A program made the translations under genes and the position numbers. DNA of 63,084 nt, counting the filler, from Rozella allomycis CSF55 (taxonomy: Eukaryota), in the NCBI GenBank assembly GCA_000442015.1. It is 7 parts of 7 records of this genome, joined end to end, with 100 filler letters (N's around TTAATTAATTAA, not from the genome) between each part and the next. Parts side by side here need not be neighbours in the genome. Positions count along the whole stretch, not along the records: positions 1 to 25,316 come from KE561132.1; 6 more parts are not named here. One strand, 5' to 3'. The notes under the pieces were generated by a model. That model did not search any database and was not told the origin of the DNA. It saw only the letters and a program-made list of their open reading frames with translations. This document shows positions 1 through 59,719 of the stretch, piece after piece (the stretch's first letter is position 1; the number at the start of each line of letters is the position of its first letter).

Positions 1-30
1 AAAATATTAAAAGTAAAATACTTTTTCTAA

Positions 31-1951: not shown

Positions 1952-4085
1952 TTATGAATCTTCTTCTTCCCCTTCATTTTCAGCTTCTTCTGCGGCCTCT
2001 TCTTTTTCTTCTTCTTTGGCTTTCTTCGCTTCCTCAAATGCAGTTTCCTCTTCAAGTGTCGGGTCTATTTGTTCATTAATCTCCAAAGGAAATACGAAAT
2101 TTATTTCTCCAGTTTCTTCATTCTTTTCTTGCTTGATGCCGTATTCTTGATTAACTTCAGGTAGAGAAGGTATTGACCAAGCAGACTCATACTTTAAACC
2201 GTCACCAACATAAATATTGGCAAATTTGTCTCTGTAACCAATATTTATAGCACCAGGCCAACGATTGCTTCTTGCATAAACAACAGAAAATTTCATAGGT
2301 AATCTGTGAGATGCTTGTCTAATTGTCCAGGCTGGCACTCCTGATTCAACGTCTAATTAAAAGCAATAAATATTGATACCTTCATCTTGCTCAATGGTAG
2401 TTAACAAAGCAGGCCCAGTCTCAGGTTCCATGGCTTCCTCCTCTGTTTGTTCCTGTCCTTCCTCTGCTTCCTCATTTTCCTCTTCGTTTCCATCTTCTTC
2501 TTTTGATTCTTTAATTAAAGTTTTAGGATTTATCCAAGACGTTCGTCCCTGTGGCAGTATATAGTTTTGGTGATGAACCCAAGAACTTGGCTGCAATAGC
2601 TCCTCTTGTGATCTCCCTTCATATTCGGCATTCACAACAACGACACTTGAAGAATTATCTAAAAAATTTAGATATTTTTGTTGAGTTACCTTCATTTTCT
2701 TCATTGTCTTCGCTTTGCTCAAAGGAATAATAACCGGCTGGACTAATAACTGTCCCAGCTGAAATTCGGGCTATTTGACATCTCAAATAATCAGCTTCAG
2801 TGCCCTTAAATGGAGGATATGATACGATCTAAATAAACCTAAAGTTTAATCTTCACCTTTTTACTCAGGTCACCAGAAAATTGCTTTTTAATCTTTCTAG
2901 CGGCTTGAATAAGAATTAGGATTGGCATCTGGTAATCTATTCCAAGGTCCAATAGCTAATTATCAAATGAATCAATTCTTACCATTATTGGAAACCCAAT
3001 AAACGTATTTGTTGACTCCTACGGATTCTTCTGCAGGGAGATTTATATTTTGGATGTTTAATTGGGGTTTTGCTTTTGCTAGATTATCAAAAAGAGCGAG
3101 CAATTCTGGATCCTCCACACCTTGTGACAATTCGGCCGAGGAATCTTGCCCGTTTTCTGCAGGCTGTTCTTCTGTTGTTTCAAGGGCAGGAGAATCAGGG
3201 CCAAGTTCAGATTCAATGACATAATAATTAGATTTCAAGCCAAATATCTTCCCAAATAGCCTTACACTTTTCAATTGCTTCTCTTGCGCCAATTGTTTCA
3301 AAGAGAGGATCAACTTAAATGTTTCTTCTTGGCCAAACGAGACCTATCTTATTATATATACTTTTCTACCCCCGCCCATTCAAATAATCTTGCAATCTCA
3401 AGCATGTCAGGCATTTCAGTCTCTATGCCGCTTTCACCATTTTCTAGAGAAGACTAAAAAATGAATCAAGACACTCATACCTGAAGCAACGTTATATTCT
3501 TTTTACAATTCTCTATGACATCACTGGATGGCACCACATCAAAGATTCCCAACGGCTTAGCATCCTTTTCAACGGCAGACTTTTTAGTCTTGACATCCCT
3601 GGACAACAGCTCAAATGTATCTTTTAATGTATTTTTGTAGTCATACCCACACTATTTTCCGGTCTCTGTTCCAAAATGGATGATATACATGCTGCCAAAT
3701 GGTCGTACAAATTTAGGCCTGTAGAATTGGAAGTTTTTTGTAAAAAAGCTTTAGCGTTCGCAAATTTAGGATCCACATTATGTGGTTGGCTAATTTGTTG
3801 TTGCGATGAAACCAATCCACCAATTTTGGTCTGAGAAATAATTGACGGTTCATTAGATATACTTTTTGTTGAACCCATTATGTTTTTAAGAGAACCGCTT
3901 TTTAATTTGTGAAGTGAGCCTTGTCTAGATGCAGTTTTATACGTTTCTGGTTGGTTTTCATTAGTTTCATTGGCGTCCACATTTTGGATTTCAGTTACAG
4001 GGGCAGCTACATCGGAAGCTGGTTCGTTGATTTGATTATTAACAACTTGTTCGTCTTGTGTCGCTACTGGTGTAGGATCTTCCAT
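1952..4085 (-). CDS. RSPH4A: Flagellar radial spoke head protein RSP4/6 family, 7 short introns
   Basis: [61 protein letters not shown]; acidic C-terminus. Confidence 0.9.
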
Positions 4086-4363
4086 TGTTTGTTTACATTT
4101 CTTAAAATTGAGTAATTTGAAATGTATCGGTCAAATCCCATGGCATGGAGTCATGGACTTTATAGTTTGAATGGAAGTATAAATAAATTAACGGAACCAA
4201 CAAAAATTGCATCCAATTTCTATCCATCTGCCTCAATTGTATTATTGTGGTAGTACTGACTGCTAAAATGGTGGAAATTACTTTAAATATGCACCAACAT
4301 CAAAAAATTCACGACAATTCTTTATGAGACAAAAATGAAATTTTGAAACATGTTTTGATTTCC

Positions 4364-7300
4364 ATGTCGTCTAAAAAACAAAGCATTACACCAACACAAT
4401 CAGCGAGAGCAAATTCACAAAAAGTAACTAGTGGCAAAAGACGTTTAACTTCATCAGCTACAAACAATCAGTCGAATGAAAACTCTGCAATATTTCCTGG
4501 CCTTTTAAATTCATATGAAGCGACCATAGAATCATTGATAGATTATAATGCATATTTAATGCCTGAATGGTCTGACGCTGACGTGCAAGGCGAAAAATGG
4601 ATAACTAAGCATGCATACGAAGAGCCAGAACCGTTTACAGAGTTACCTGCGAATTTAAAAAGCCAGATAAGTGGATATAAAAGGATTAACGAATTATTTC
4701 CTGTGAGTGTTAATGAGAGCAATAGTTGCATTGTAACAGCAGCTACTTTATCTGCATCTACGGATGGCGATTCATTTACGACTTGTTTGGAGGTGATTAG
4801 AAATGAAGAAGAAAAGAAAATATCTGGTCAATCTATTTGTAAATTTTTCCAAGTTAATTCGCATCTAATAGTGTCTAATTTTATGAGAACTTTGATGGCC
4901 AAATTGAGTTTGGCTGTTGATTTGTACAAATCTCGTAAATCTGGTGTATTGAATATGGATGATCCAGCTCCTTGGGATGCAATATATCCAAAAGGAAAAG
5001 ATGGGTTACCAATGTATAATGCGAGCGGGAAGTATATAATAAAGCTTTATGATCATGGATGCTGGAGGAAGGTGACAGTTGATGATAAGATGCCGTTTAA
5101 TCAAGAGAATAAATTATTGCTACCCGTAAGTGCGAATGCCAATGAGTATTGGACATTGATTTTGTGTAAAGCCATTTGCAAGGTTGTGTTCGCAGAGTAT
5201 GAAAATTAAGGAGTTATAAATAGCGGAAATCAAAGTGATGTTGATGTTTCGCAACTGATTCATGGATATGTTCCACAAAGTTTGAAATGGACTTTAAAGA
5301 ATAATTTTGATGAAATTGCTTTTCAAAGTCAAAAGGCAACAAGCAAAGCCACATCTGCTGCATCGAGGGATTCTAAAGGCGTAGAGAAGAATGTGAAAAC
5401 GACAGATATGATTTATGTTTTAAGTTGTGATAATGATGAAGTAAATCTTTTATAAATATTGAAAAGACGAATCAAGAGACTATTATGGCTAGAATAACTG
5501 ATGTGAGGTTTATTGAAGATGACCCAACTTTAAAGAAAGAAATTAAAATTAAACCATTCTGTGTTGGAGGCAATTTGAATATTTTAGACAAGATATCTGG
5601 CTTTTATGATAATTTTAATGATTTAACCGGAAATGAGAAGATTGGAAGTGAGATTTGGTTGAGTGTTGACAATGCAATAAAGATTTTCAAGTAATGCGAG
5701 ATTTAAATAGACATTAAGAAATTTGATGGGATTCAATTTAATCAGAAATTACCCTAATGAAAAAAGTCTGAAATTTATTGAAAGTGTTGAAGATATTAAT
5801 GCAAACTTTCCAATTCCTTTTGTTATTTGTAAACTGAAAAATGTAATGTTAGAATAGATTCGGAGAACCCAATTAATATTTTGATTCAAGTTACTTCCTG
5901 TGGAAGATTGAAATATCCAGCTAGTTGTATTTTAGAGGAGTTTGATTGGAAGAGAAATAACCAAAAAAGAATTCAAACAATTCCAATTTGTTTCAATGGA
6001 TTTAATGTTTCTATTCCGTAAACTAGATTTGCCAGTTGAATAAAAGGAATGGAATCCCCATAATCTTAAAGATTGATATACCTTGTGGCTATTTTATAAA
6101 TGTTTGGTCTAAAGATAATTTTATAATTGATGAATTTCCAAACTTTCTTAAACAAAAACAACAAGGGTTTGTAATTGATTCTATAAATAGTTTTCCTGCT
6201 CAGCCATCAAATTCCTTTTTCTATTTTTTCAGGTAACTTGGGATTCTTATTTAAAATAAAGACATAAAATTAATTTGAGTAAAGATGCAACATTTTATGG
6301 CCAACTGTTACTTTCAAATCCATTTTTGAGACATTATTCGTCAATCTCTGTTATAAATTTAGATAATCAAGAGATTATATTTTCAGATTGTTTAAATAAA
6401 AGTTTCATCCTTGAATCAAATAAAGTAATGCTATTGAGAAATGGTTATATATAGAATGGATATCTTTTAAGTGCTTTTTGCAGAACAACTTTAAATTCTA
6501 CACAATCAAAGTATCGATTTATTTTAATTTCAGACAATCAAATAATTCCAGTTGATCAAATTTCAACTTTTCAATTTCAAGCTAATTTTAACACAATAGA
6601 ATTGGATGAAATTTACATTCCAAACAAACATCACACAATCACAAAACAGTTTTTAAAATTAAAAGAAATTTGTGATTGTCAAGCATCCATATTTGTTGGA
6701 TTTTCTCAACAAGTGGAAATGAAATTGTCTTTAATCAAAAATGGAAATATTCTAAAATCCTTTTCAGGCAGGGGTTTTATTTATATACCTTTAATAACTT
6801 TATGGAATGAGCAAGATAATCTAAATGATGATTCAAGGTCTAAAATCTCTCTTTTATTAACTGGAAATGAAAATGATATGATTCATCACGTCTTGATTCC
6901 ATTCAATTCTTCTTATCAAGCCCCAGATTTTATTTCTTTAGTAAACAAGAAGAAAAATACTTCTGGTCTTTCAGCTGACCCAAAAAAGAAAGCGAAAGAT
7001 AAACCAACGGGAAATGAATCACAAAGTTCAAACGAGCAATCAAGCGACCTACCCTGTTTAAAAATAAAGATATTCTATCCAGAAAATATTTCAATTTCAA
7101 TGACAAAAGATACTGAAACTGAAGATAAATACAAACAATTGAAATCTTCTTGGGAATCCGCACAGCCAGGAAGAGCTTTGAAAGCAAAAGAGGCAAGAGA
7201 AAGTTATTTGAAATCACTTTCAAAACATCCATTGAACAAACAAGACTCACGCCAATTATTAGTAAACGAAGAAACATCTCACTCAAATTTCAACTTGGCT

Positions 7301-7750
7301 TCAATAAGAACTATAATTGAAAAAGAACCTTTGGAATTTATGCCACTTAAAAGAAGACACCAGCTTTGGAAGACACTCTCCGCTCCATATGCTATTGATA
7401 ACCTCTCACTTATTAAGAATCAATGGTATTCAGAGAAATCAGACTCAATAACGGAAATTATTGAAAAAAGCAAAGAGAATTTTAAATTGTTTCAAGATAA
7501 TCTATCCCAGTCAAGAAGAGATGAATTTCAATCAAGACTAAACTGGTCTGCTATGCACACTGAACGAATAAACAAAACATTTGAAAATTGGAAAGTTTTA
7601 AAAAATGAAGACAACGCTAGAAGAGAAGAATATAGACAAAATGTAATCAAAGTTTTGCAACAACAAGCCGCCATGAATGTTAATGAAGAAAAACCACAAA
7701 GTGCAAAAAAGGATAAAGGAAATGCGAAAAAATCACCAGTTAAGAAATAA
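4364..7750 (+). CDS. Androglobin-like protein (calpain-like N-terminal domain, coiled-coil C-terminus), about 7 short introns
   Basis: PEWSDADVQGEKW, PWDAIYPK..YNASGKYIIKLY..GCWRKVTVDD, EYWTLILCKAICKV, and C-terminal KSSWESAQPGRALKA resemble ADGB as recalled. Confidence 0.7.
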
Positions 7751-7789
7751 ATGCACTAAATTTGTTAAAATTATTAAATTAATTGAAAT

Positions 7790-8910
7790 TTATCTTTTTT
7801 CATTTGCAAGGGGTATTGATTTAGGCGTTTGAAGGGTAATTTGCGAATAACTATACAACAATCCAGATAGAAATGCTAATTTTCAACTACAAGTAAATTT
7901 ACCTAGTAAAATAGAAAATACACCGCCATTATTAACTTCTTTTTCACTCTTCATAAATAGCATGCCTGATATCGCAACAGGCAACTTATTCAAGGCTCCA
8001 ACCATCGAGTAAGTGGTCGATGCAGTAACTCGCAATGCCCATGCAGTAGAATAACCTTTGTTTAAATACAATGATCGCTACTGATTGCATATGCAGAAAT
8101 GCTACTCAGAATTATCCCCGCCGCTAATTTATCTTTCATTTCTACATATTCTCCATCACCAAAACTGTAAAAACAATTTATAACCTTTACTAGTCTTGCA
8201 TAAACTCATTCCAATTTTCAGTCATCAGAGATAAGAACATAAAAATCGGTGTAGATATTAAATTGTTGTAATACACTGTATCAAAATCTCTGAAATCTAC
8301 ATTTTTTATCTTCTTTTTCATATATAGAACGTAACCAGCAGATGTTAAACAATTTAGCATCATCCATGCAAATCCTCTTGCATTGAATGAAATGTCATTG
8401 TATCCACCAATAATTGAACTTAATACCTATAAATTGGTTTTAATATCAATACCATTAGTGAAAACGAAAATGCCATCAACTTTGTAATTGATCTACCAAA
8501 CATTCTCTGTTCCCCAATAGCCACCAAAATTATAGTCAAATTTTTAAAAATAGTAAACATTGATATTTTCAAGTACTGTATACTAATTACCTTGTAAAAA
8601 TCGTTTTACCTTTTACTCCCAGTGTATATCATTAAAACAAGCATTAATGAAACGGGATACCATTGAATCAAATTCCGCCTTTCCACTTGCCTAAATTTCA
8701 CCCATCCTATCGATCGGCAAAACAGCAGCAAGCAAACACAAATTAAGCTCTATCACCTAAATTGTTTCATTTTACCTGGCAGCCCAGAAGAAAAAAGTTC
8801 AGGTTAAATTTATGAACGGACAACACATATTTGTTAGTTAAAGTCATCATTATCGAAGACATACAATAGGAAAGCAATGCGGCCACAGCTTCCATGCTAT
8901 AGCCTTTCAT
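7790..8910 (-). CDS. VRG4: GDP-mannose transporter (Vrg4/GONST type), 6 short introns
   Basis: [43 protein letters not shown] (GALNK motif). Confidence 0.9.
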
Positions 8911-8944
8911 TGTAAAATACCGAAATTTAAGAGTTTGTAATCAA

Positions 8945-9790
8945 ATGTGGAGTTTATCAACCTTTATCAGAAAATATTCATGCTCAAGTCCTTTGAAATT
9001 ATCAATATCAAAGTTTCCATCGCCTAAAGAGACATCCAAGATTCCCTTTGTATTTGTTCATGGCCTCTTTGGCTCAAAACAAAACTGGAGGTCATTGTGC
9101 CTGGCATTAGCTAGACAGAGCAACGTGACTGTTTATGCTCTTGATTTAAGAAATCACGGAGAATCACCACATTCTGAACACATGGATTATAGTTTAATGT
9201 CTCAAGATATTAAGAACACCGTGGATCAAATGGAGTTGAAAACGCCCTTCAATTTAGTGGGCCATTCTCTTGGAGGAAAAGTTGTAATGCGATATGCTAC
9301 AGACAATCCTCAAGATGTTAACCATCTAGTAGTTGTTGACATTGAGCCAGTATCGTATAAAAATGCTTCTCTACCTTTTGATGACTACCTGGATATTATG
9401 GCTGAATGTGAAAATGCAAATTATAAAAAAAGGAGTTTGGTTGAAGACCATATAGCAAAGTACATAGATAATTTGGAAATCAGGCAATTCCTGATGACAA
9501 ACGCCATTCAGTTTGGTGATGGCACTTGGAAATTCCGATGTAATGTGCCTGTGCTGAAAAAAGAACTCCCAGTGCTATTTGGATATGAGCCCGGGTCATT
9601 GGATTATAGTGGTAGGATAACAGTAGTTGCTGGAAGAAAATCACATTATGTTAAAAATCTTCATTCATTTGAAAAGTATTTCCCAAATGCAGAGATGTCA
9701 TTAATTGCTTTAAATACTGGTCATTGGGTACACGCAGAGAGGCCACAAGAGTTTTTAGAGATTCTTTCAGATATTTCAGATACAAAATAA
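8945..9790 (+). CDS. Alpha/beta hydrolase, ABHD11/YbfF-like, probably mitochondrial; single exon
   Basis: HGLFGSKQNW, DLRNHGES, GHSLGG nucleophile elbow, GHWVHAERP. Confidence 0.88.
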   Translation: MWSLSTFIRKYSCSSPLKLSISKFPSPKETSKIPFVFVHGLFGSKQNWRSLCLALARQSNVTVYALDLRNHGESPHSEHMDYSLMSQDIKNTVDQMELKTPFNLVGHSLGGKVVMRYATDNPQDVNHLVVVDIEPVSYKNASLPFDDYLDIMAECENANYKKRSLVEDHIAKYIDNLEIRQFLMTNAIQFGDGTWKFRCNVPVLKKELPVLFGYEPGSLDYSGRITVVAGRKSHYVKNLHSFEKYFPNAEMSLIALNTGHWVHAERPQEFLEILSDISDTK

Positions 9791-9806
9791 AGCAATTTAT
9801 TACAAT

Positions 9807-11334
9807 CTATATGGTGTTTAATTGTTGCTTAAATGCGTTGATTTGGTCATGAATTGATTTTACCAATGTTTGATATCTCTGTGCATCATATTTTAGTGAT
9901 TCTTCCTTTTCATGTAAGAATTTCAATATTTCTTTGTCTATAATGCTGCTTCGTTAATTAATTGCTAAATGTCTTACTTAATGTTTATGGGTGTATTGTA
10001 ATTGCGAAGTAAATATAATGACACAAAAAGAAAAATAAGGGAAAACACCAAAAAAATACATGAGATGTAGTCTTGACGTCTTGAATTTCTTGTTGAAACA
10101 GAAACAGGCAACTGATTAAGGCTAAAATCCGCGTCAGGGTCTTTACATGATAAATCAACGTTTTTGAAGTAATATCTTTGATAAAATAGTAATATTTGCG
10201 ACATTAGATGCTCTTTTGTAATCAAAATGTGGGTTTACTCTCGATGATCAATTGTTGTGTCTGGTCCAGGTATATTGACACAGAACACCCTTCTTCATTT
10301 GCTTGTAAATCATACATTAGATTTATCCCATAACTTGTAACTCTATCCTCTTTTTCATTGAAAATTCTAATAAAACTTTCAATTATCACGCTATACAATT
10401 AATGATAATTCCCATACTTATCTTTAAGCCTTACCTTATGCCTTTGTTCTTCATAAAGAGAGAGTCTAATAAAAGAATGCGGGTCATCTATTTTATACAC
10501 CCAAGTCCGGGTCAAAAAACCATTCTGATTTTTCCACCAATTGCTAAATTTAAGAACTTTAAATCATAAGTGTTGGTATTGAAATACCTGAAATATGAGA
10601 GCTTTCCAGTATTTTTTTGAACTTTGTGCTATCCCTCCCAAATAACCCGTTCTTTATCGTAAATATTTTTTGAGGATAGGATTCTTTAAATAAGAGTATA
10701 AAGTTTTCGTTTAATAAAAAGTTCCCCGTGTCTTTACTTTTCATTGTAGTTATAATTAGTTTACGCTATAGTGTCCTCCACTTTTCTTAAGGGAGATATC
10801 GTGACATCCTCATCATCGCTAAACAAAGTATCCCCATTTTCATTAGGGGGTGTAATTACTTCGGTTTCCTATTTGAAGCACGTTCCATATTTTACAGTGG
10901 GATGAATGACATTCTTCCACCGAAAAACTATTTGCTCATACGCCATATCACGGTTCAAAAATGATCCCAAGAAATATTTTGTATGAAGGGTAGAAATAAA
11001 TATTGCGTTTGGTATGACAAATGCAGTGTTTCTTTTATGAACTGCTATTATTTCACGAAAGTCTACTATGAACAGACATTTGAAACAATGTTATGTACTT
11101 GAGTGATCCAGCCGATAATGTTGGCGTAAAAACATAAATGATGTTCCGTTATATAAAGTCGACCCTGGATTAATATGTCCTTTTGATAAGCACATACATA
11201 GTCTGTATTAATACTGACCTCAAAATACCTTCAATTAATGCTTCAGTTTCAGGTACTTCCTTAAATAAACTATGGAAATCTTGCTCTCTCTTATTTGACC
11301 CATTCAACGAATTTGAATCAAAAGATTTGCTCAT
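9807..11334 (-). CDS. GRAM-domain membrane protein (Lam/Ysp2/GRAMD1-like), 8 short introns, one of them GT-TG
   Basis: DFHSLFKEVPETEALIEDYVCAYQKDILIQGRLYITEHHLCFYANIIGW, then TAFVIPNAI...TKYFLGSFLNRD; C-terminal TM helix. Confidence 0.85.
11073..11098 (-). other. Non-canonical 26-nt GT-TG intron in the GRAM-domain gene
   Basis: gtacataacattgtttcaaatgtctg; removal gives GWITQFIVDFREIIAVHKR; the AG options give a stop (33 nt) or a frameshift (36 nt). Confidence 0.7.
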
Positions 11335-11403
11335 TTAGTAAATTCCAAATTTTAGACTGGGTGTTCAAAAGTAACCAAGGCGATACATTCCATTCTCAAA
11401 TCG

Positions 11404-11891
11404 ATGAAGGAAAAAATATATTCGCATGTTCCATCTAATCATCCCATATGGCTACACTATCCTGAAATTCGGGTACGTGAAGTGGACCAAAGTGTGCAAC
11501 ACGAAGTATCAAACTCATCCAAATTCCACTATGACCATGAAAGAGTCATTCTAAGGAGTATGTTACCCCAAAACGATTGGAACAAGTTATTAAATAATGA
11601 TATACAAAACATACTACAAAAGGTTGGACCATCAAGAAACTTAACATTAGAAACAAAAAGGTGCCGACACTATGTTCTGTTCTTTTCAAACCCAAGAATT
11701 TTTAAAAAGCATTGAAAACAAGGAAAAAAATATGATATCTGAAGTTGTTAAACGGGATTTCGGGGAGCCAAGTTTGAGGCCATATAGAGATCAATTTAGA
11801 CATGAAGGCGAATTGTAATTTGATAAAAAAAATTTAAAGAAGGCTTTTTTCTGAAGCCATGAATGCAATAAAACATCGAGTCTCCAAATAA
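11404..11891 (+). CDS. Hypothetical protein, 2 short introns
   Basis: ORF extended across short GT-AG introns at about 11623 and 11815; no family recognised. Confidence 0.55.
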
Positions 11892-11899
11892 ATTGTTTA

Positions 11900-12766
11900 C
11901 TAAAGTGATATACATTTTGGGGCAATTAACTTTAACGCATTAAATATTCATTGAAACCTTGTTTAAAAAGCCTGTTTGATGGATATTAAAAAGTATTTCC
12001 TCGCTTTTGTCTCCGTATTCTCCAATTGACACCACAGTTTTATGCCTGCCTTTTTCAGGAATACATGTAAATGGATTTCTTGATTCTAAGACCTTCCATC
12101 CTTTCATACGCAGGCTGTGTTCTATATTGACATCATTCCCAATTAGCAATAAAGGGATTCGCATTAAAGCTCCAGAGGATCCCTTAATGCAACGGAAGTT
12201 TAAGGGGAACACAAAGTCTGTTAATGTTTCAGAGTCAAGAAAATTTATGGAAAATGGAAGTTGCCAGATAATTCCATCGAAACCAAGCGCTACAGAAGTT
12301 CTACAAAGTGACCCAAGATCTCCTAATAATTATCGCAAAGTATATACAAATTACTAGGATCTTTTTCTTGGAGATTTATTCCTTTAAATAAAACCAATCG
12401 TTTTCCGAAGCTTTTTATGGAATCAAAGTATTCATTTTCGCTTAATGTTACATTTCTTGTTTCACTCAAAGCAAATAACAGCTCCGCATTAGAATGTTCT
12501 CCCTGCAAATATTTTAAGACGGTTTGGTCTGCAATTGGAAACGACGGATATTTTTCAATAATGCTTTTCCATAAAATTTCATGTTTCTTTAGTCGTAAAC
12601 ACATAGGACTTACCTTTTGCTTAGTTTTATGTGAAAAATAGAAAACTCCCTTTACGTGCTCACTATTTTCCTTAATGATTTTATATGAATTAAATATAAC
12701 AAAATTGTTTCTCATGAACATTTTAAAACCATTATTGAGGCTTTCGAGGGTTAAAAATTTGTCCAT
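11900..12766 (-). CDS. Divergent SpoU/TrmH-family RNA methyltransferase-like protein
   Basis: QEKDP-RDLGSLCRTSVALG and RCIKGSSGALMRIP resemble SPOUT motif 1; 2 short introns. Confidence 0.6.
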
Positions 12767-12974
12767 GAATTCCTATTTTGGAAAGTTAAAATATCAATTT
12801 AGTCCAGCAACTCAACGATTACTTACAGAAATTTCAGGCTTTATGTAAAAAGCTGAAATCGAATTCCTCGTGTTCATTCCTTTGCGGTAAGGGATAAATA
12901 TTTTATGCTTGATTTCATTTTAAACATTTTATTGAGGTTTAAAAAACAATAAATAAAGTCAAAAAAATGATAAT

Positions 12975-13022
12975 TTCCGCATCGGGGAATCGAACCCCGG
13001 CCTTTGCGGTGAAAGCGCAAAA
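12975..13022 (-). tRNA. tRNA-Glu(TTC), 3' two-thirds; 5' end lost at an assembly N
   Basis: Minus strand reads GCG-CT-TTC-AC-CGC anticodon arm, T-arm CGGGGTTCGATTCCCCG, acceptor 3' strand ATGCGGA. Confidence 0.85.
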
Positions 13023-13096
13023 NTTGTCGTCTTTTTTACTAATTAAAAAAAAATCGATAATTCGCAATTTCTCACGTGATTTCATAATCTGATCTA

Positions 13097-13915
13097 ATGA
13101 TGGTTGATCTTCAGCATTGTACAAATCCATTCAAATGCACGGCTTCACAAAGTCTTGTGTGCGATTATCAGCGAGCCATCAATTATCTGAGCTGTTTCCA
13201 TTCCTCCATCGATAATGCTTATCCAAAGATCGACTCCGACGAACAAAATGGGAAGAAGTCTAAGCAATCAGTGAAGAAACATCGAAAGAAACCAAATATA
13301 AACAGGTTTCACATCAAAAGCTTCTCCGATGTAATGATGCTGAAATGCAAAATAACCAAATGCAAGATAAATACATCCCCATGGAGGACTATTCTTGTAC
13401 CTGATACATTTACTTTTGGACAATTGCATGAATTGCTGATCATTTTGTTTGACTGGGATCCCGATATTAACCATAGGTTTCTTCATGGAGACGACCGAAA
13501 TTCAAAGGCACCCAGTAATAACGAGATCACGAATGATGAAGATCAATCTAAAATAAAGGAACATTTCATTCGCAACAATGTGATGTTTTATGAAATTGAT
13601 GAAAGTAGGGTCAACGTTCTAATCAAGTTGGAAAACAGTAGCATACCAGCCGAACAGGGTGTATTCTACCCAATTGTTTTGAGAGGAAAAGGTGTGATGA
13701 ATTTCGACAATAATGAATATGAAAGTGGCAGAAAAAGTCACAACATGAATCGAATGGATAAGAATAAATTGAATGGTCGAATTAGAAAGCGATTTGGAAA
13801 AAGATATATAAAAACTATATCGGATGATGAAAATGAAGATTCTGAGAATGAGACTGAGATGGATCAATGTTATGAATACTTTGATGTGGATGCATTCATT
13901 AATGATAAAAAATAA
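13097..13915 (+). CDS. Protein with a plasmid pRiA4b ORF-3 (MM3350-like) domain; intronless
   Basis: PWRTILVPDTFTFGQLHELLIILFDWDPDINHRF ... YPIVLRGKG match the family pattern as recalled. Confidence 0.65.
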   Translation: MMVDLQHCTNPFKCTASQSLVCDYQRAINYLSCFHSSIDNAYPKIDSDEQNGKKSKQSVKKHRKKPNINRFHIKSFSDVMMLKCKITKCKINTSPWRTILVPDTFTFGQLHELLIILFDWDPDINHRFLHGDDRNSKAPSNNEITNDEDQSKIKEHFIRNNVMFYEIDESRVNVLIKLENSSIPAEQGVFYPIVLRGKGVMNFDNNEYESGRKSHNMNRMDKNKLNGRIRKRFGKRYIKTISDDENEDSENETEMDQCYEYFDVDAFINDKK

Positions 13916-14035
13916 ATATTATTTAAGGCCTTAATTTAATAATTTCATTTTGTCTCTGTCCTCTGTCATTATTTCACTCATCATTGCTTATCAGCCACAT
14001 TGTTCAGGTTTAATGCAAAACTACAAACTCAGTTN

Positions 14036-14473
14036 CGATGAAAAGAGGGTTAGCGTTCTAATCAAGTTGGAAAACAGTAGCATACCAGCCGAACAGGGTG
14101 TATTCTACCCAATTGTTTTGAGAGGAAAAGGTGTGATGAATTTCGACAATAATGAATATGAAAGTGGCAGAAAAAGTCACAACATGAATCGAATGGATAA
14201 GAATAAATTGAATGGTCGAATTAGAAAGCGATTTGGAAAAAGATATATAAAAACTATATCGGATGATGAAAATGAAGATTCTGAGAATGAGACTGAGATG
14301 GATCAATGTTATGAATACTTTGATGTGGATGCATTCATTAATGATAAAAAATAAATATTATTTAAGGCCATAATTTATGACTCTTTATTCTGTCTCTGTC
14401 CTCTGTCATTATTTCACTCATCACTGCTTATCAGCCACATTGTTCAGGATTAATGCAAAACTACAAACTCAGT
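14036..14473. repeat. Near-identical copy of about 13597-14034 across a single-N join (likely second-haplotype assembly artefact)
   Basis: Sequence repeats immediately after N14035 with a few SNPs and indels. Confidence 0.85.
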
Positions 14474-16732
14474 TGTGAACTCCATGGACATTCGCAGGAT
14501 GTAATATGACTAAAATAGCTGTTATAGATTAAAGCAATATCAGCAGTCAAAGACGTTATATTAACAGCTTCAAGAGATAAGTCGGTTATTTCATGGGACA
14601 TAAGAAACAAGCAGCCATATAAATGCTTTAAAGGACATTCAAATTATGTAAATAGCTTAGCGGTTGTAAATCATGCCGATTTCGGTGGTATAATTTATTT
14701 ATCTTTGTGATAGACTTAATTTTAAGTGGTGGAAGTGATAAAATAGTATACGGTTATTCTGTGGAAGGGATGGAAGAAGAGCCTATAATAACTCTGGTTG
14801 GACATGAGAGTAATGTTTGTTCTATTGATGTTTCAATTAACGGATTAATTGTGACTGGATCGTGGGATAAGTAAGGAACAATAGCAATTTATATTGTAGA
14901 ACAGCCAAAGTATGGAAAGATTTTGTATGTGTAGCGACATTGAAAGGTCATGAACAAGCTGTGTGGGCCGTTAAATTCTACAAGAGTGATATCATTACTG
15001 GTAAATACAAGTTTCAAAGATTATAGCGTCTGCTGATAAAACTATAAAGATTTGGAGAGATGGGAACTGTGTAAGAACAATGACAGGCCATAAGGACTGT
15101 GTTAGAGGATTGGCTATTGATCATAATGGGAATTTGATTTCATGTGGAAATGATGGATTGATATTAGTTTGGGATATTTCAAGTGGAGAAGTTTTGAGAG
15201 AATTATCAGGCCATAATTCTTTTATTTACTCGATTGCTGTTTGTGAAGGAGGTGAATTGGTGTCTGTAGGTGAAGATAGAAGTATAAAGATTTGGTCTGG
15301 TAACTTTCTTTATATGATTACATAAAGATTACGAATGTGTTCAATCAATTGCATATCCAGCATTATCTATTTGGTGTGTTTATCCATTGGAAAATGGAGA
15401 TTTCATCGTTGGTGGAAGTGATTGTATTGCCAGGGTATTTACAAAGTCTATTGAAAGAATTGGCGATGAAGAATTAATAAAAGGATTTGATGAAAAGGTT
15501 TCAAACACCCAATTGCCATCCAACATGATTGGTGATGTGAATAAAGAAAAACTTCAAGGAAAAGAAGGATTAGCAGAAGGAGGAAATAAAATTGGCCAAG
15601 TTAAAATGATCAAAAACGGAAACAACGTTGAAGCCTATCAATGGGATGGAAATGATTGGATTAAAGTTGGAGACGTTGTGGACGCCGTTGGCTCAAACAG
15701 AAAACAACTCTTCAATGGAAAGGAATACGATTATGTTTTTGACGTTGATATTGCTGATGGTGTTGTTTTAAAACTTCCATTCAATGCAAACGAAAATCCC
15801 TACATGGCTGCGCAAAAGTTTATTGAAGACAATGATTTGAGTCAATCGTATCTAGACCAAGTTGCTGATTTCATAATAAAAAATACAAATGGAATTTCCT
15901 TTGATTCCCAAAATTACTCAAACGATCCCCTCACTGGAGGATCAAGGTACATTCCTGGACCACCAAATTCATACAATTCAACTACAACAGTTAAGAAACA
16001 ATTTTCAGCGTCAAAACAATTAAACTTTTTTGAATCTGCAAATTTAGATGGAATCAAAAAGAAAATTCAACAATTCAATTCTGAATTCCTTCATTTAACG
16101 ACAAACGAAGAAAATCAACTTTCTGAAATTTACGAAATGATTGAAAAGAAAAATGCATCAGAATTTAATCAATTCGAATTAATTTATAAGTTTCTCGCTT
16201 TAGATCCTTCAAAAATATTTCCAATAATTGATTTACTCCGATTATTGGCATACTACAATGCAAATATCCCCACTGAAATATATGAAGATGTTTTTGACAT
16301 TGCAAACAGTTCTGACATAAACAGAATGCTGTCTTTAAGGCTAATTGTTAATTCCTTTAAAGGTGACTTATGGACCAATTTCCTTCCTCATGCCAAAAAG
16401 ATAATTTGCTTTTCCCAATCAACGTCAAACAATAATTTAAATCAAGCTATATCCTTTACACTTTTAAAGTAAGATTTTTCACATGATGTTATAAAAGTTA
16501 TTCCATCAATGGCTCTGTTATTCACGCTCCAATGCTACTAGATATTCTTAAATTTATAATCAATACTTTTCAAGTGAACGAAGATTTATTTGTAAATTGT
16601 CTGCAATCTTTGGGCACTCTTATCGATAGAAGGATGGTTGACCGCACAGTTTTAAATGACATAAACTTGTCTAGGATAAGCACTACTTCTAAGATTCAAG
16701 AATTAATATCAGAAATAAAGTTACTTTCGTAA
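14453..16732 (+). CDS. DOA1: Doa1/Ufd3/PLAA (WD40-PFU-PUL), 6 short introns
   Basis: YKLSCELHGHSQD, WD40 repeats, PFU motif GKEYDYVFDVDI..LKLPFNANENPY.AAQKF, DPLTGGSRY. Confidence 0.93.
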
Positions 16733-16801
16733 TTTAATATATTTCCATTTTAACCGTAAGTATTTACATTCAATCTATTTTAATACACGATCTAAGCCAC
16801 G

Positions 16802-18132
16802 ATGAAAACGTACTTGCTTCTCATATTTTTTGCGACTTTAACTCTTGCAGAAATACAACCCCTCAAAGAATGCTTAGCTTCTAACAACATAGAAATTCCT
16901 AATCCCGTTGACGGTCAAATCATTCCTCATCCTTTAGATATCACTGAAGAATTATGGACTGAAATAACAGCAAAATGTGAAAAATCGATTGCTTTATCTG
17001 ATTTTGGAGACCCAGACACCTATTTGTCAACTATAAACCACAAAGTACCAAAGGCTTTAAGAGAAGGACTCATTAGAGTGCTTGAAAATCTATATGAAGA
17101 CAAGGAAGCTTTCCAGCAAAGGGTATCCAATATGTCAAAAAATATATTCAATACATTTATTAGGCAAAGATTAGCAACATCAAAAAGTCTCACGGAGCAA
17201 ATAATCAATGAAGCTGAGCAGTTCATTAATGTAGATTCTGTTCCTTCTGTTATCAATTTATTGCAAGGAACGCTCATGTCAAATAAACCTACCATTNTGA
17301 GCAAATAATCAATGAAGCTGAGCAGTTCATTAACGTAGATTCTGTTCCTTCTGTTATAAATTTATTGCAAGGAACGCTCATGTCAAATAAGCCTACCATT
17401 GGAGCCAATGAAAAGAAGATGTTGATTGAATTGGCAATGAAAGTTGCAAATAAAGACCAAAAGAAAATTTTAAAGGCTATAGAGGGTGAAAAAGTAGATG
17501 AACAACTTCAAACACAGCCAAGTGTGAACGCCGTAGAAGATGAACAAGTAACATCTACAAATGAAAATACACAAACACCGCCAAGCGTGAACGCGGTAGA
17601 AGATGAACAAGTACCTACAAATGAAAATACACATTCTACTCAAAACGTAAATGGCGATGAATCGGGACCTGATGCAAAACCGCCTACTCTGGAACAGAAT
17701 TCTGGAAACGCAGAAGAAAGTAGTGCAACACCACCTCCTGCTAGAGATGATGAACTGGCTGTAAATACACCTCCCGTTCAAAACACTGGAACCGATAATA
17801 CTGGAACTAATGCTGATGTTATTCAAGGTGAGGGGAAAGACAATAATAGCCTAAAACCAAAAAATAAGCCCACTATTAACAAGAAAGATGATGAAAAAAG
17901 TCCGAAATATCAGCCCAAAGATGAGACGAATCAGAAAGAAACCTTGTATATTTGTCATATATGCAAAAACAAACTCATTATTGACAATGTTGAGCCACCC
18001 AAAAATAATATTCATTTGCTTCCTTTCTTTATTGGGGGAGTCGGAGTGGCTGCCATGATGGGTGGTGTATCAGTGTATTATTTAAAGAAAAAGAAATTTG
18101 CATCACTCGCAAATGCAGAAATGAGCATTTAA
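16802..18132 (+). CDS. Secreted single-pass (type I) surface protein with a low-complexity stalk; split by a duplicated overlap at N17298
   Basis: Signal peptide MKTYLLLIFFATLTLA; PSVNAVEDEQV..TNENT twice; TM helix followed by KKKK. Confidence 0.75.
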
Positions 18133-18183
18133 AAAGTCATGTTTCATGTATGTTGCATTTCTCTACAATAAACTCGCATTTTC

Positions 18184-18689
18184 TTATTTTATTATTTCAC
18201 CTTTAGCTTCTTTTTTCAAATCTTCCATAACTTGAGCCCCGTATTTAGCATAAATATCTCGCATTCGATACATCGCTGGTAAATCGTCCCTTAGATCCCA
18301 GACACACCCTACTGAAGTTGGATTCTCGTGATACAGTGACTCCATCACAAATTTTGGCTCTCCCTATTTAGATGAATTCTATATTAATACTGATTGTTGA
18401 TTTACAGACTGATAGAACTTTTTGAAGTTAAGGTCGCAGTATTCTTTGTCCACGTATCCGAATTGGTAGTAATATCTTATTATCCCAATAGGATCTTTAT
18501 ATAACGAATTAATTGATTTTCATTACTATAACACTTTATGGCTTGCTTCAAATAATCCAGTGCACCAATTTTCGCCATATTGTTCGGAGAGTAGCATGAA
18601 ATCGATACATTACTAATTTCCTTTATGTCCGCATCATTTGGTCGTAGTTCACAACTTGAATTTGGATCTTTGTCGGTCATGAAATTCAA
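18184..18689 (-). CDS. Emi1/DUF3128-like small protein, 2 introns
   Basis: Spliced CYNPIGIIRYYYQFG..C and C-terminal VWDLR. Confidence 0.6.
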
Positions 18690-18710
18690 AAAATTTCATA
18701 ATTGTTTGCC

Positions 18711-41151: not shown

Positions 41152-43204
41152 TTACTCACTCGCTTCTGAAAATGAAATCTCCAATTCTTGCTGATCCAAA
41201 TCTTTTTTCAAGCTGCTTATCCCAGATATTTCTTCAAGGATACCTGGATTGTTGAAAATCCTTTCTAAAAATCCAATATTGTCGGATTTAAATTCATTTA
41301 TGATTTTTTCGGAGCAGGCAACGCATTCATTGAATCTTGGCGAAGAAGTTTTTATAAATTCGTAGGTAGAAAGAAATCCTCTGATCTGCTGATATGCGGT
41401 CCCTAAAGTATCTTGGGTGGAATTCGAAACTGATTCCCCAATACTAGTGTCAATTAAAGCATTTCTATACTTGGCCAAGTTTGATTGAACATATGATGTT
41501 AATAATTCTACCGCAGTTCCTGACGCAATCATTGAAATCCCAGGGCGAGTGACTGTGCATTGTTGATCCAGTGTCCTTTTTTGTAAAGACTTTAAACAAA
41601 GGCTTGTATTGTTTACGTTCGTGGGAGCTATTACATCCTGACAGAAGTAACAAGAATTGTTATATTCACGCAAACCATGTCGGATTACTAAGAAGGAATC
41701 AAATCCTATAGCAACACTGATGACAATCTACATTTAGCAAAAATTCGTTGTGTACTTTATTATATAGCCTGCCTAGTAGAGTCGGTAGCCATCTTGACTC
41801 TCTACTATCTGTAAGTAAAAAAATAACATCATGTAAGCTTATCACTTCCATTAACTCAGCCAAATCATTTTTAAAACTAGCTGGATCTCCGATGGAATGA
41901 CCCGGCATGGGTACTGACATCACCATACCTTTACAATCCACATTGGGGTAGATATCTTTTAATCTCTGAGCTGCAACTTCAGCTTTATATTGTCCTCCAT
42001 TTTTACAATCATCAAAAACAAACAATGATTGCCGAACAGGATTAGAAGGTGAGACTACTCCATTGTCAATAAATGTTATGCATTTTATATTCCAGCCCTA
42101 TAGTATTAATATTACAAAATTACAAGTAAGCATCTAGCTACATTGCATCCCAAAGTACCAGCACCAACTAGAAGACATCTCAATGAAGATATCTTTTCCA
42201 AGTCAAGATCCGGTGCTGTCTTCCACTTCATTAATTTTGTATTAAGGTCAACGGCAGTTTCAGCAAGCCAAATAAATAAATTACAAAACATATTACTGGT
42301 CATCGTTCATGAGGTGTCCTAAACTTGTGATATTTGAAGAAAATTGAACACTGAGGCCAATATTCTCAACGTTGGGGACAAGATTTGCTCGAGTTTTAAT
42401 AACCACATTTTTAGATTTTTGAATTCTAAAAATGAGTGCAGTTATGCTTCTGGCTTTATACTTTTGCATTAACATTAATAGTATATTGTGACAATTTTGA
42501 TCGATGTTATTCCCAGTGGTTGAGTCTTTAATGATAAAATACTTAATATGAGCGCATACATTGATTACTGTTTCTTTTGAGCATTCATTCAATTTGCTGA
42601 TTCTCACAAAGCTGTTTGCGATAACAGCCACAGCTTGCAAACCATGATCATTCATGTATGAATAAGCATCGTCAATATTTAAGTAGTCTAAAAGCGTAAA
42701 ATCTATCCGTTGAAACTCCAGATTAAGATCGCCATGAGTAAGGAGGATATGTCCTGTGGTATAATGAAACTTATATTTCTTCAGATCAGCATATGAAACA
42801 AGGAAAAAATTACAGAAATCACCAATTTCAATTTTTTCCCAATGATTATTCGCCAGCATTTCTTTATACACTTCTAATTGTGTCTTAATATATTTGCGAT
42901 AGTCAAAATCGGCATAGTCTTCAAGTGTGTTTTGGTTCATGAGAAGCCCCTGAATCATGCAAAATTGAAGATTAAGGCATTCGTTTTTGAAACATTCGAC
43001 TATAGACGTGGGAGCTTGATGGTCCCGTCCTTGGCAAATTGCTAGAATAGGACGAGCTTTATCATCTAGTTTGAAAACATCTTTCTTTAAATCAACTAGT
43101 CTGAACCAAAAATTTACATCAACTATTGATTTAAACAATTGAAGTTGGACTTTGGTTTCATTCACTTCGATCGCCTTGGCTGTCATTGAAGGCAAATTTT
43201 CCAT
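41152..43204 (-). CDS. ATG7: Autophagy E1-like enzyme Atg7; about 4 short introns, one of them GT-TG
   Basis: [57 protein letters not shown]. Confidence 0.95.
42269..42296 (-). other. Non-canonical 28-nt GT-TG intron in ATG7
   Basis: gtaatatgttttgtaatttatttatttg has no AG; removal gives [14 protein letters not shown]. Confidence 0.75.

Positions 43205-58261: not shown

Positions 58262-59719
<1,458 letters not shown>

What the first reader, a model, noticed from the sequence alone, without database searches (positions are those of the whole stretch)
11073..11098. Second GT-TG intron, with TG apparently chosen over downstream AGs (GRAM-domain gene)
Seen: the 26-nt gtacataacattgtttcaaatgtctg ends in CTG. 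The next AGs give 33 nt (immediate TAG stop) or 36 nt (frameshift). TG excision gives GWITQFIVDFREIIAVHKRNTA, matching the recalled GRAM pattern GW.T.L.I.F.EI..I.K without gaps. Inference: intron length outweighs the AG dinucleotide even with an AG 7 nt downstream, which makes this the sharpest test of a ruler mechanism.
Basis: partly seen in the sequence, partly recalled or inferred. Interest (0 to 1): 0.85.

Follow-up and report, generated by a model that had tools for sequence, protein, structure and literature searches.

The report
Tiny fungal intron ending in TG
A 26-base intron in a Rozella allomycis lipid-transfer-type (GRAM domain) gene appears to end in TG instead of the near-universal AG, and two more genes nearby show the same thing, which suggests that this parasite places its splice cut largely by distance, although no RNA data were available to prove it.

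Summary
The sequence is as described: minus strand 11098..11073 is a 26-nt GT...TG segment. Two DNA contigs from different studies match the window there with no difference. The organism is Rozella allomycis CSF55. It uses the standard code and very small introns: 108 canonical GT..AG introns were modelled in the window, 94 of them 26-29 nt and none 32-45 nt.

Only a 26-nt deletion gives a gap-free GRAM domain. The 12 best of 765 variants are all 26 nt, and GT..TG is the only one of these with a GT donor. The AGs at 33 and 36 nt give early stops.

Two other genes need the same kind of intron: ATG7 (28 nt) and alanine aminotransferase (26 nt). In the aminotransferase, GT..TG is the top variant of 345 with homologs chosen independently of the junction. 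The public annotation is broken at two of the three sites; the ATG7 annotation was not retrieved.

No RNA evidence could be obtained. TG acceptors are known in humans only as alternatives to a nearby AG. My reading is probably real, a new variant of a known kind, and unproven.

The parts
11073..11098 (-). The finding: a 26-nt intron with GTACAT at the 5' end and TCTG at the 3' end, phase 0, between exon 2 and exon 3 of the GRAM-domain gene
   Evidence: Sequence. DNA confirmed by X3 and X7 contigs. Only 26-nt deletions give the best domain scores, and this is the only one with a GT donor. Model A beats model B in 148 of 149 homologs.
9807..11334 (-). GRAM-domain gene, 9 exons and 8 introns, 435 residues plus stop, with a hydrophobic stretch near the C-terminus. 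The other seven introns are GT..AG: 11228-11203 (26 nt), 10895-10869 (27), 10764-10737 (28), 10587-10557 (31), 10417-10391 (27), 10238-10213 (26), 9977-9949 (29)
   Evidence: Spliced ORF. Pfam GRAM on exon 2. The annotated protein P0001 covers only part of it.
11099..11202 (-). Exon 2 (104 nt), the N-terminal half of the GRAM domain (...QGRLYITEHHLCFYANIIGWITQ). It is left out of the public gene model
   Evidence: PF02893, E 5.1e-11, profile positions 18-51 of 112. P0001 reads ...EALIE|VDFREII....
10896..11072 (-). Exon 3 (177 nt), the C-terminal half of the GRAM domain, starting FIVDFREIIAVHK
   Evidence: Columns F82, E/D84, I/V85 and K90 are near-invariant in 142 homolog segments and are matched without a gap.
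11045..11073 (-). Rival canonical intron B (29 nt, GTTCAT...ATAG). It would remove the codons for VDFREIIA
   Evidence: Found by my gene finder. Donor score -4.86, the lowest of 108. HMM score 165.4 against 181.5 bits, rank 336 of 765.
11066..11098 (-). Rival canonical intron D (33 nt, same donor, acceptor TTCATAG). It gives an immediate in-frame TAG. The public model uses the same acceptor with the intron-1 donor (163-nt intron 11228-11066)
   Evidence: No canonical intron of 32-45 nt among 108.
42269..42296 (-). Second GT..TG intron (28 nt, GTAATA...ATTTG) in ATG7, joining the ATG7_N domain to the ThiF/E1 domain. The first AG lies 71 nt from the donor
   Evidence: ATG7_N, E 9e-27, and ThiF. 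The match to yeast ATG7 residues 299-346 starts at the first residue after the TG. N-terminal match.
59285..59310 (+). Third GT..TG intron (26 nt, GTAATC...TTTTG) in alanine aminotransferase. The AGs lie 45, 54 and 71 nt from the donor
   Evidence: The flanking exons abut at residues 297/298 of human GPT2 (3ihj_A) and 299/300 of barley AlaAT (3tcm_A). Top of 345 variants with homologs picked through another exon. The annotated protein P0151 stops exactly here.

Best explanation
The 26 nt at 11098-11073 (minus strand) are a spliceosomal intron of Rozella allomycis whose productive 3' splice site is TG, not AG. Introns in this genome carry information only at the 5' end (GTA, usually GTAA) and at the last four bases (A/T, T/A, A, G), and almost all are 26-31 nt long. 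I infer that the second-step cut is placed mainly by distance from the 5' splice site or from an unrecognised branch site. Within that short reach an AG is taken if there is one. If there is none, a TG at the normal distance can serve, because it keeps the terminal G. In this gene the original CAG has become CTG. The cut at 26 nt gives the full GRAM-domain protein, and the AG 7 nt further on (33 nt) lies outside the usual range and would give a stop. Shown here: the sequence, its confirmation in DNA reads, the length rule, the lack of internal motifs, and the homology demand for a 26-nt excision here and for TG-ending excisions in two other genes. Inferred: that the RNA is really cut at TG, how often, and the distance mechanism.
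For: (1) DNA: X3 and X7 contigs match the window across the site with 0 differences.
(2) With this intron and seven GT..AG introns the gene reads as one 435-residue ORF.
(3) Exon 2 is a significant GRAM match on its own (E 5e-11), so it belongs in the mRNA, and no GT..AG, GC..AG or AT..AC intron joins it to the conserved start of exon 3. The best canonical variant ranks 116 of 765.
(4) The 142 homolog segments have no gap between GW and K. Model A matches F82 (123 of 142), E/D84 (138 of 142) and I/V85 (139 of 142).
(5) Model A scores higher than model B against 148 of 149 homologs, median +12.7 bits.
(6) The donor score of 0.63 and the length score are within the normal range.
(7) Two more genes in the same 63 kb need GT..TG introns of 28 and 26 nt. 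For the aminotransferase the homologs were chosen with a different exon, and GT..TG is rank 1 of 345.
(8) The background frequency of TG is 0.066. Three of three supported non-AG acceptors being TG has a rough, post hoc chance of about 1e-3.
(9) TG is the one non-AG acceptor already validated for U2-type introns in humans (PMC2374985, abstract and section 12 read).
Against: No RNA evidence: no listed run is on record as RNA, and the four runs laid are DNA contigs without joints at introns. Homology fixes the length (26 nt) but not the exact place. Eleven other 26-nt deletions within 7 nt score 179.9-182.1 bits against 181.5. One of them, AC..AG at 11091-11066, has a canonical acceptor and scores 181.9. 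The GRAM homologs were collected with P0001, which already contains VDFREIIA, so they lean towards model A. The acceptor context of this intron is poor: -1.98, in the lowest 5%, with C at -3, seen in 5 of 108. In 101 of 106 canonical introns the AG used is the first one ending at 26 nt or later; that rule would predict the 33-nt cut here. In humans an AG-to-TG mutation activates neighbouring AGs rather than the TG (PMC2374985, section 12). All DNA probably comes from one strain, so a recent inactivating mutation cannot be excluded for this single gene. The ATG7 and aminotransferase sites lie outside the stretch checked against reads, and this assembly does contain indel errors.
Confidence: 0.68

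Rival explanations
1. The gene is spliced at the canonical AG 7 nt downstream (33-nt intron). That gives a stop right after GWITQ, so the locus is a recently inactivated gene (CAG to CTG) or a transcript mostly destroyed as unproductive. Any TG use is minor or absent.
For: GTACAT...TTCATAG has a normal donor and a typical ATAG end. The first AG ending at 26 nt or later is the one used in 101 of 106 canonical introns. Human AG-to-TG mutants use neighbouring AGs (PMC2374985, section 12). The acceptor context at the TG is weak.
Against: The remaining 8 exons and 7 introns are intact and give an open frame of 435 residues. None of 108 canonical introns is 32-45 nt long. Two other conserved genes (ATG7 with its catalytic-cysteine region, and alanine aminotransferase with its SISKG lysine region, both downstream of the intron) have the same TG feature, with the nearest AG 43 and 19 nt away. 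Three independent dead genes in 63 kb, all of the same type, is unlikely.
Confidence: 0.14
2. The real intron is the canonical 29-nt GT..AG segment 11073-11045. The protein reads GWITQVHNIVSNVSVHK, and the resemblance of the removed codons to the GRAM motif is a relic.
For: It keeps the frame open and was chosen by my gene finder when only AG was allowed, and also when non-AG cost 5 nats. Its length of 29 nt and its ATAG end are typical.
Against: Its donor GTTCAT scores -4.86, the lowest of 108; GTT occurs in 2 of 108. The product needs a one-residue gap that 0 of 142 homolog segments have, and it replaces F, E and I at near-invariant columns. Its HMM score is 165.4 against 181.5 bits, rank 336 of 765. 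It scores lower than model A in 148 of 149 comparisons.
Confidence: 0.07
3. The public gene model is right: exon 2 is skipped by a 163-nt GT..AG intron (11228-11066), and the protein lacks the first half of the GRAM domain.
For: This is the deposited annotation (P0001). It is in frame and uses canonical sites.
Against: A 163-nt intron is far outside the range seen here, where the longest credible intron is 31 nt. The skipped segment is a significant GRAM match by itself. The median score against homologs is 51.9 against 134.2 bits. The same model also stops early, at an intron it failed to recognise.
Confidence: 0.03
4. The excised 26 nt are shifted: an AC..AG intron at 11091-11066 (canonical acceptor, non-canonical donor), or another of the equally scoring 26-nt deletions.
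For: HMM score 181.9 bits, as good as GT..TG. It ends in the typical TTCATAG.
Against: The 5' end ACATTG has nothing in common with the GTA(A) donor found in 101 of 108 introns, while a proper GTACAT sits exactly 26 nt upstream of the TG. In the ATG7 and aminotransferase cases no AG is within reach, so only GT..TG explains all three.
Confidence: 0.03
5. Sequencing or assembly error: the true genome has CAG, or an indel nearby.
For: This assembly does have indel errors. For example, an extra base at 2913 created a false GT..GC intron.
Against: Contigs from X3 (word depth about 314) and X7 (about 11), from different studies, are identical to the window across 10355-12900 and 9932-11757, and X1 shows no gap.
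Confidence: 0.02

Closest known systems
TG 3' splice sites of U2-type introns in human genes (Szafranski et al. 2007, PMC2374985; GT-TG in GNAS and TSPYL2, PMC4176328)
   Same: GT donor, TG acceptor, pyrimidine at -3 (C, T, T here). In the GRAM and aminotransferase genes an AG lies within 28 nt downstream (7 and 19 nt).
   Different: [quoted passage not shown] Here TG is the only acceptor that gives the conserved protein. In ATG7 the nearest AG is 43 nt away, beyond the 28-nt human limit. The introns are 26-28 nt, not hundreds of nt. The apparent frequency is 3 in about 111 introns, against 36 genes in the whole human genome.
Very short introns of Microsporidia (about 23-30 nt in Encephalitozoon cuniculi; PMC6349667, passages read)
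   Same: Sister lineage of Rozella with the same size class. That paper notes two putative introns of about 30 nt in the R. allomycis S23 gene that lack the microsporidian motifs.
   Different: Microsporidian short introns are few, 5'-biased, have conserved 5' and branch motifs, and are poorly spliced. Here introns are dense (up to 12 per modelled gene) and have no internal motif. No TG acceptor is mentioned in the passages I read.
Length-constrained tiny introns of ciliates, chlorarachniophyte nucleomorphs and dicyemids (recalled from memory; no paper read here)
   Same: Narrow length peak and little internal sequence information, hence proposals that length itself helps define the intron.
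   Different: Different lineages. As far as I recall these keep GT..AG.
NAGNAG and other tandem acceptors (seen only in titles and abstracts of the listing)
   Same: Two candidate acceptors a few nt apart (TG at 26 nt, AG at 33 and 36 nt).
   Different: The spacing of 7 nt is not a multiple of 3, so only one choice is productive, and the upstream site is not AG.

Membership tests
U2-type GT-AG spliceosomal intron | GT (GU) at the 5' end with the species' donor consensus | tested here: met
   GTACAT. GTA occurs in 101 of 108 canonical introns, and the donor score of 0.63 is within the normal range.
U2-type GT-AG spliceosomal intron | AG at the 3' end | tested here: not met
   It ends in CTG, confirmed in DNA contigs of X3 and X7.
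U2-type GT-AG spliceosomal intron | Length typical of the species | tested here: met
   26 nt; 28 of 108 canonical introns are 26 nt and 94 of 108 are 26-29 nt.
U2-type GT-AG spliceosomal intron | Branch-site motif upstream of the 3' end | tested here: inconclusive
   No position inside 99 canonical introns carries more than 0.13 bit, so there is no motif to test against.
U2-type GT-AG spliceosomal intron | Removal seen in RNA | not testable with these tools
   No RNA holder was listed.
TG alternative 3' splice sites (as defined in PMC2374985) | TG acceptor paired with a GT donor in a U2-like context, pyrimidine at -3 | tested here: met
   C at -3 here, T at -3 in the ATG7 and aminotransferase introns.
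TG alternative 3' splice sites (as defined in PMC2374985) | Always alternative to an AG acceptor within 28 nt | tested here: inconclusive
   AG lies 7 nt (GRAM) and 19 nt (aminotransferase) downstream, but 43 nt in ATG7. Whether the AGs are used cannot be seen without RNA.
U12-type AT-AC or GT-AG intron | AT..AC ends or a U12 donor consensus | tested here: not met
   The best AT..AC variant (29 nt) scores 173.1 bits, rank 116 of 765. The donor is GTACAT. The U12 consensus itself is recalled, not tested.
GRAM domain (Pfam PF02893) | Significant match to the Pfam model | tested here: met
   Exon 2: 42.8 bits, cut-off 23.6, E 5.1e-11, profile positions 18-51 of 112. Exon 3 alone gave no Pfam hit but aligns to 142 homolog segments without a gap.
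Lam/Ysp2/GRAMD1 sterol-transfer proteins (GRAM plus VASt plus C-terminal membrane anchor) | VASt/StART-like domain after the GRAM domain | tested here: inconclusive
   Single exons gave no VASt hit in Pfam. Only 1 of 149 homologs gave a marginal second match (E 7.8e-4). The joined protein could not be given to Pfam.
Lam/Ysp2/GRAMD1 sterol-transfer proteins (GRAM plus VASt plus C-terminal membrane anchor) | C-terminal transmembrane segment | tested here: inconclusive
   A hydrophobic stretch YISCIFLVFSLIFLFVSLYLL is seen in the translation. No predictor was run.

The most novel reading that the evidence does not exclude
Rozella allomycis routinely tolerates TG as the sole, productive 3' splice site in about 2-3% of its introns. 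Its spliceosome places the second cut mainly by a fixed reach of 26-31 nt from the 5' splice site and needs only the terminal G. Current gene models, which allow only AG, are therefore truncated or mis-joined at hundreds of genes genome-wide.
Probability: 0.45. Interest if true: 0.78.

Novelty: new variant of a known kind. Interest (0 to 1): 0.62.

Why it matters
If RNA confirms it, this would be a natural case in which a U2-type spliceosome uses TG as the only productive acceptor. The human survey (PMC2374985) reported that this never occurs.

It would also give a simple system for asking how the 3' splice site is measured out: introns of 26-31 nt with no internal motif, in an organism related to Microsporidia.

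There is a practical side as well. Of the two public gene models I retrieved at these sites, both are wrong: exon skipping plus early stop in the GRAM gene, and truncation in the aminotransferase. In ATG7 a canonical-only gene finder splits the gene in two; the deposited ATG7 model was not retrieved. Comparative work that relies on the Rozella proteome, such as gene-loss inferences on the road to Microsporidia, may therefore be undercounting intact genes.

Tried and rejected
Ciliate reading. My first idea was TAA/TAG as sense codons with Paramecium-like introns or TA-bounded eliminated sequences. I dropped it once the in-frame 'stops' all proved to lie in 26-31 nt GT..AG introns and the organism was named by its own annotated protein.

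RNA evidence. No RNA holder was listed. The four runs laid are DNA contigs.

Whole genome. None is held for this window.

Relatives for an orthologous intron. Two metagenome scans with P0001 and P0151 found none. A protein search with exon 2 plus in-frame flank found no candidate. A protein search with exon 3 found only the organism's own protein.

Relaxed gene finding. It proposed other non-AG acceptors, which I reject:
- GT..GC at 2982-2955 comes from an extra base at 2913 in the window. X1 and X3 contigs lack that base, and without it a normal 27-nt GT..AG intron is in frame.
- GT..TC at 59415-59442 has an in-frame 31-nt GT..AG alternative.
- GT..TT and GT..GA at 53086 and 52551 lie at single Ns flanked by duplicated sequence.
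- GT..AC at 62719, and the TG candidates at 62969, 62658 and 62307, lie in weak, mutually overlapping models with no homology support.

Per-dinucleotide control. The gene finder fills the same problem loci with whatever dinucleotide it is allowed, so it cannot name the acceptor by itself. The exact ends rest on homology.

My 'AG53' variant was a miscount: that 53-nt deletion does not end in AG. One search replaces it.

Gene finder with a flat length prior and no donor model. The output is noisy: 54 introns, with the peak still at 26-29 nt (26 of 54) and many non-GTA calls of odd length.

VASt domain. Not detected on single exons.

Literature. Searches for Rozella with intron, short introns, or RNA-seq/transcriptome, and for GT-TG, found no paper describing non-canonical splicing in Rozella. 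The genome paper (James et al. 2013) is not held, and supplements are closed, so a statement there could have been missed.
Full report
**Observation.** Read on the minus strand, window 11098..11073 is gtacataacattgtttcaaatgtctg: 26 nt, GT at the start, CTG at the end. The next AGs end 33 and 36 nt from the donor, and further ones at 54, 57 and 67 nt. None is in frame with a 26-nt excision. The base call is sound. Laying four public DNA runs on window 1-20000 gave contigs from run X3 (10355-12900) and run X7 (9932-11757), from different samples and studies, with 0 other letters and 0 gaps. An X1 contig (6496-13000) had 0 gaps and 5 other letters whose places were not displayed. All runs behaved as DNA, with no joints at any intron. 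No RNA run was listed.

**Organism and gene.** I first read the in-frame TAA/TAG codons as a ciliate code. That was wrong. Every such 'stop' lies in a 26-31 nt GT..AG segment, and removing eight such segments gives one open frame of 435 residues under the standard code. A protein search with exon 3 returned one hit at 100% identity: a 127-residue 'hypothetical protein / GRAM domain-containing protein' of Rozella allomycis CSF55. Exon 2 alone matches Pfam GRAM (PF02893, 42.8 bits, E 5.1e-11, profile 18-51 of 112). The public model reads ...EALIE|VDFREII.... It jumps from the intron-1 donor to the AG at 11066, a 163-nt intron that skips exon 2, and it then stops at an unrecognised intron. A VASt domain, which would make this a Lam/Ysp2/GRAMD1-type protein, was not detected on single exons. 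Only 1 of 149 homologs gave a marginal second match. I therefore call it a GRAM-domain protein with a hydrophobic C-terminal stretch.

**Introns of this genome.** I wrote a small dynamic-programming gene finder, using codon log-odds trained on 48 long ORFs and explicit introns. With GT..AG only, gene models scoring 15 or more hold 108 introns:

| Length (nt) | 23 | 25 | 26 | 27 | 28 | 29 | 30 | 31 | 46 | 47 |
|---|---|---|---|---|---|---|---|---|---|---|
| Count | 2 | 1 | 28 | 22 | 29 | 15 | 4 | 5 | 1 | 1 |

- The donor is GTA in 101 of 108.
- The acceptor triplet is TAG in 68, AAG in 32, CAG in 5 and GAG in 3.
- The 46-nt case is an artefact (see below), and the 47-nt case lies in a weak C-terminal region.
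The upper limit near 31 nt is therefore not imposed by the model.
- A run with a flat prior over 15-120 nt and no donor model is noisy, but it still peaks at 26-29 nt (26 of 54).
- Inside 99 GTA introns no position carries more than 0.13 bit. Information sits only in GTA(A) and in the last four bases.
- The AG used is the first one ending at 26 nt or later in 101 of 106 introns.

**What is removed at the finding.** Candidates:

| Model | Coordinates | Ends, length | Product |
|---|---|---|---|
| A | 11098-11073 | GT..TG, 26 nt | full GRAM domain |
| C | 11228-11066 | GT..AG, 163 nt | the annotated exon skip |
| D | 11098-11066 | GT..AG, 33 nt | stops at once |
| E | 11098-11063 | GT..AG, 36 nt | stops after 4 codons |

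A full HMMER scan of 1.84 billion representatives with P0001 gave 809 hits, and I kept the best 149.

- Median phmmer scores were A 134.2, B 120.9, C 51.9, D 75.1 and E 76.3 bits. A beat B in 148 of 149 homologs, median +12.7 bits.
- In a MAFFT alignment of 142 homolog GRAM segments there is no gap in any sequence between the invariant GW and the K of the next strand. A fits without a gap and matches F (123 of 142), E/D (138 of 142) and I/V (139 of 142). B needs a gap and has I, S and N at those columns.
- Caveat: the homologs were found with a query that already contains VDFREIIA, so the set leans towards A. The near-invariance of those columns is a family property.
- I then scored all 765 in-frame, stop-free single deletions around the junction against an HMM built from the homologs alone. 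The 12 best are all 26-nt deletions (179.9-182.1 bits).
- GT..TG scores 181.5 and is the only one of the 12 with a GT donor.
- AC..AG at 11091-11066 scores 181.9 and is the only one with an AG acceptor.
- The best canonical-ended variants are AT..AC of 29 nt (173.1 bits, rank 116) and B (165.4 bits, rank 336).

Homology therefore fixes the length at 26 nt and the place to within about 7 nt. The choice of GT..TG within that range rests on the donor: GTACAT scores 0.63, a normal value, while B's GTTCAT scores -4.86, the lowest of 108. The acceptor context of A is weak (-1.98, lowest 5%).

**Two more cases in the same window.**

*ATG7, minus strand.* The ORF 43204-42297 matches Pfam ATG7_N (E 9e-27) and yeast ATG7 residues 14-143. 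It ends in a TAA that overlaps GTAATA. Twenty-eight nt later, after ...ATTTG, the frame that follows matches yeast ATG7 299-346 starting at its first residue (LAETAVDLN against IADQSVDLN; E about 3e-12), and it matches ThiF. The first AG is 71 nt from the donor. The only canonical alternative is a split gene with 1 nt between the stop and an ATG. Homology cannot separate 25, 28 or 31 nt here, because the linker is not conserved.

*Alanine aminotransferase, plus strand.* Intron 59285-59310 is 26 nt, GTAATC...TTTTG. The upstream exon aligns to human GPT2 (3ihj_A) up to residue 295 with two more residues to go, and to barley AlaAT (3tcm_A) up to 299. The downstream exon starts at 298 in the human chain, and by extrapolation at 300 in the barley chain. 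The exons are therefore contiguous.

- Homologs were chosen through a different exon: 87 proteins of 400 aa or more out of the 120 listed.
- With these, the GT..TG deletion is rank 1 of 345 variants (468.9 bits, tied with a one-base shift that gives the same protein).
- The best canonical-ended variant scores 441.1 bits, rank 169.
- AGs lie 45, 54 and 71 nt from the donor, and only the 71-nt one is in frame. It would delete 15 residues.
- The annotated Rozella protein P0151 (284 aa) ends exactly at ...KKVLRS, so it is truncated at this intron.

Both introns have good donor and acceptor-context scores: 1.45 and 2.03 for ATG7, 0.74 and 2.11 for the aminotransferase. They look like ordinary introns in which TAG has become TTG. 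These two sites were not covered by the read check.

**Other non-AG candidates are artefacts or unsupported.**
- The GT..GC 'intron' at 2982-2955 disappears when the extra base at 2913 is removed. X1 and X3 contigs both lack that base (table 4). A normal 27-nt GT..AG intron is then in frame, and the radial-spoke protein reads through.
- GT..TC at 59415 has an in-frame 31-nt AG alternative.
- GT..TT and GT..GA near 53086 and 52551 sit at single Ns flanked by duplicated sequence.
- The rest lie in weak, overlapping models.

After this filter, the non-AG acceptors with homology support are TG in 3 of 3 cases. The background frequency of TG is 0.066, so the chance is roughly 1e-3. This figure is post hoc and approximate.

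**Mechanism.** Shown:
- Introns carry about 10 bits of sequence information, plus a length held to 26-31 nt.
- AG is used when one lies in that range.
- In the three TG introns no AG ends anywhere up to 32 nt from the donor.
- The TG sits at 26, 28 and 26 nt, the modal lengths.

Inferred: the spliceosome reaches only a short, fixed distance for the second step. It prefers AG, but it can use TG, which keeps the terminal G. The idea that this G pairs with the first intron base in the catalytic centre is recalled, not tested. In this gene an ancestral CAG mutated to CTG without loss of the productive product. Whether the AG 7 nt downstream is also used, giving a stop and probably decay, is unknown. 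That would make it a TG-AG tandem of the kind described in humans.

**Comparison with what is known.** Szafranski et al. 2007 (PMC2374985; abstract and section 12 read) validated TG acceptors in 36 human genes. They reported these only as alternatives to an AG within 28 nt, never as sole sites, and found that AG-to-TG mutations activate neighbouring AGs. PMC4176328 (passages read) cites GT-TG in GNAS and TSPYL2. PMC6349667 (passages read) mentions two putative introns of about 30 nt in Rozella S23 that lack microsporidian motifs. PMC8476143 (passages read) gives 2.5 introns per kb for Rozella. None of the papers returned describes non-canonical splicing or a length rule in Rozella. The genome paper is not held, and supplements were closed.

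**Verdict.** It is a new variant of a known kind, and it deserves an RNA test.

Noticed in passing
whole window: Rozella allomycis introns are extremely short and uniform. Of 108 modelled GT..AG introns, 94 are 26-29 nt, 101 of 108 have a GTA donor, 100 of 108 have a TAG or AAG acceptor, and there is no internal motif. I found only a passing mention of '~30 nt' introns in print (PMC6349667).
   Followed up: yes
window 9807-11334 (-), 58384-59719 (+): Public protein models are wrong at TG introns. P0001 (127 aa) skips GRAM exon 2 and stops early. P0151 (284 aa) is an aminotransferase truncated at the TG intron. For ATG7 (41152-43204, minus strand) my AG-only gene finder splits the gene in two; the deposited ATG7 model was not retrieved.
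   Followed up: partly
window 2913 (also 510, 844, 2660, 6038, 19398): The window differs from run contigs by single-base indels. At 2913 both X1 and X3 lack a base, and removing it turns a false GT..GC or 46-nt intron in a radial-spoke-head-like gene into a normal 27-nt GT..AG intron.
   Followed up: yes
window 52097-53441 (-), Ns at 52517 and 53054: In a cysteine-synthase/CBS-like gene, single Ns are flanked by duplicated coding sequence (for example [14 protein letters not shown] twice). This looks like unmerged contig overlaps at scaffold joins.
   Followed up: no
window 25317-25416, 48418-48517, 54256-54355, 58110-58209, 59720-59819, 61607-61706: Six identical N patterns of 44 N, 12 bases, 44 N. 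Their origin is unknown (masking or gap convention). One of them cuts the 3' part of the aminotransferase gene.
   Followed up: no
window 12971-13022 and 19125-19581: A repeated element. Summed word depth jumps to about 830-915 (12674-13340) and to 1220 (18677-19343) in X1 and X3. Several contigs end there with shared loose ends, and single Ns sit at 13023 and 19580.
   Followed up: no
window 13597-14449: An X3 contig skips 439 nt (13596 to 14036), and an X1 contig skips 440 nt (14009 to 14450). This is either a tandem duplication collapsed in the run contigs or an assembly duplication in the window (table 5).
   Followed up: no
window 50539-50609 (+): tRNA-Gly(GCC), the only RNA family hit in the window.
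   Followed up: yes
window 14871-14899, 41755-41728 and 8 other canonical introns: Ten canonical introns of normal length (of the 12 listed; two are the doubtful 46- and 47-nt models) have a TG ending 24-26 nt from the donor, 2 to 6 nt upstream of the AG used (for example ...TTGTAG...ATGTAG). Where the spacing is 3 nt, these could be in-frame TG/AG tandem acceptors worth checking in RNA.
   Followed up: no
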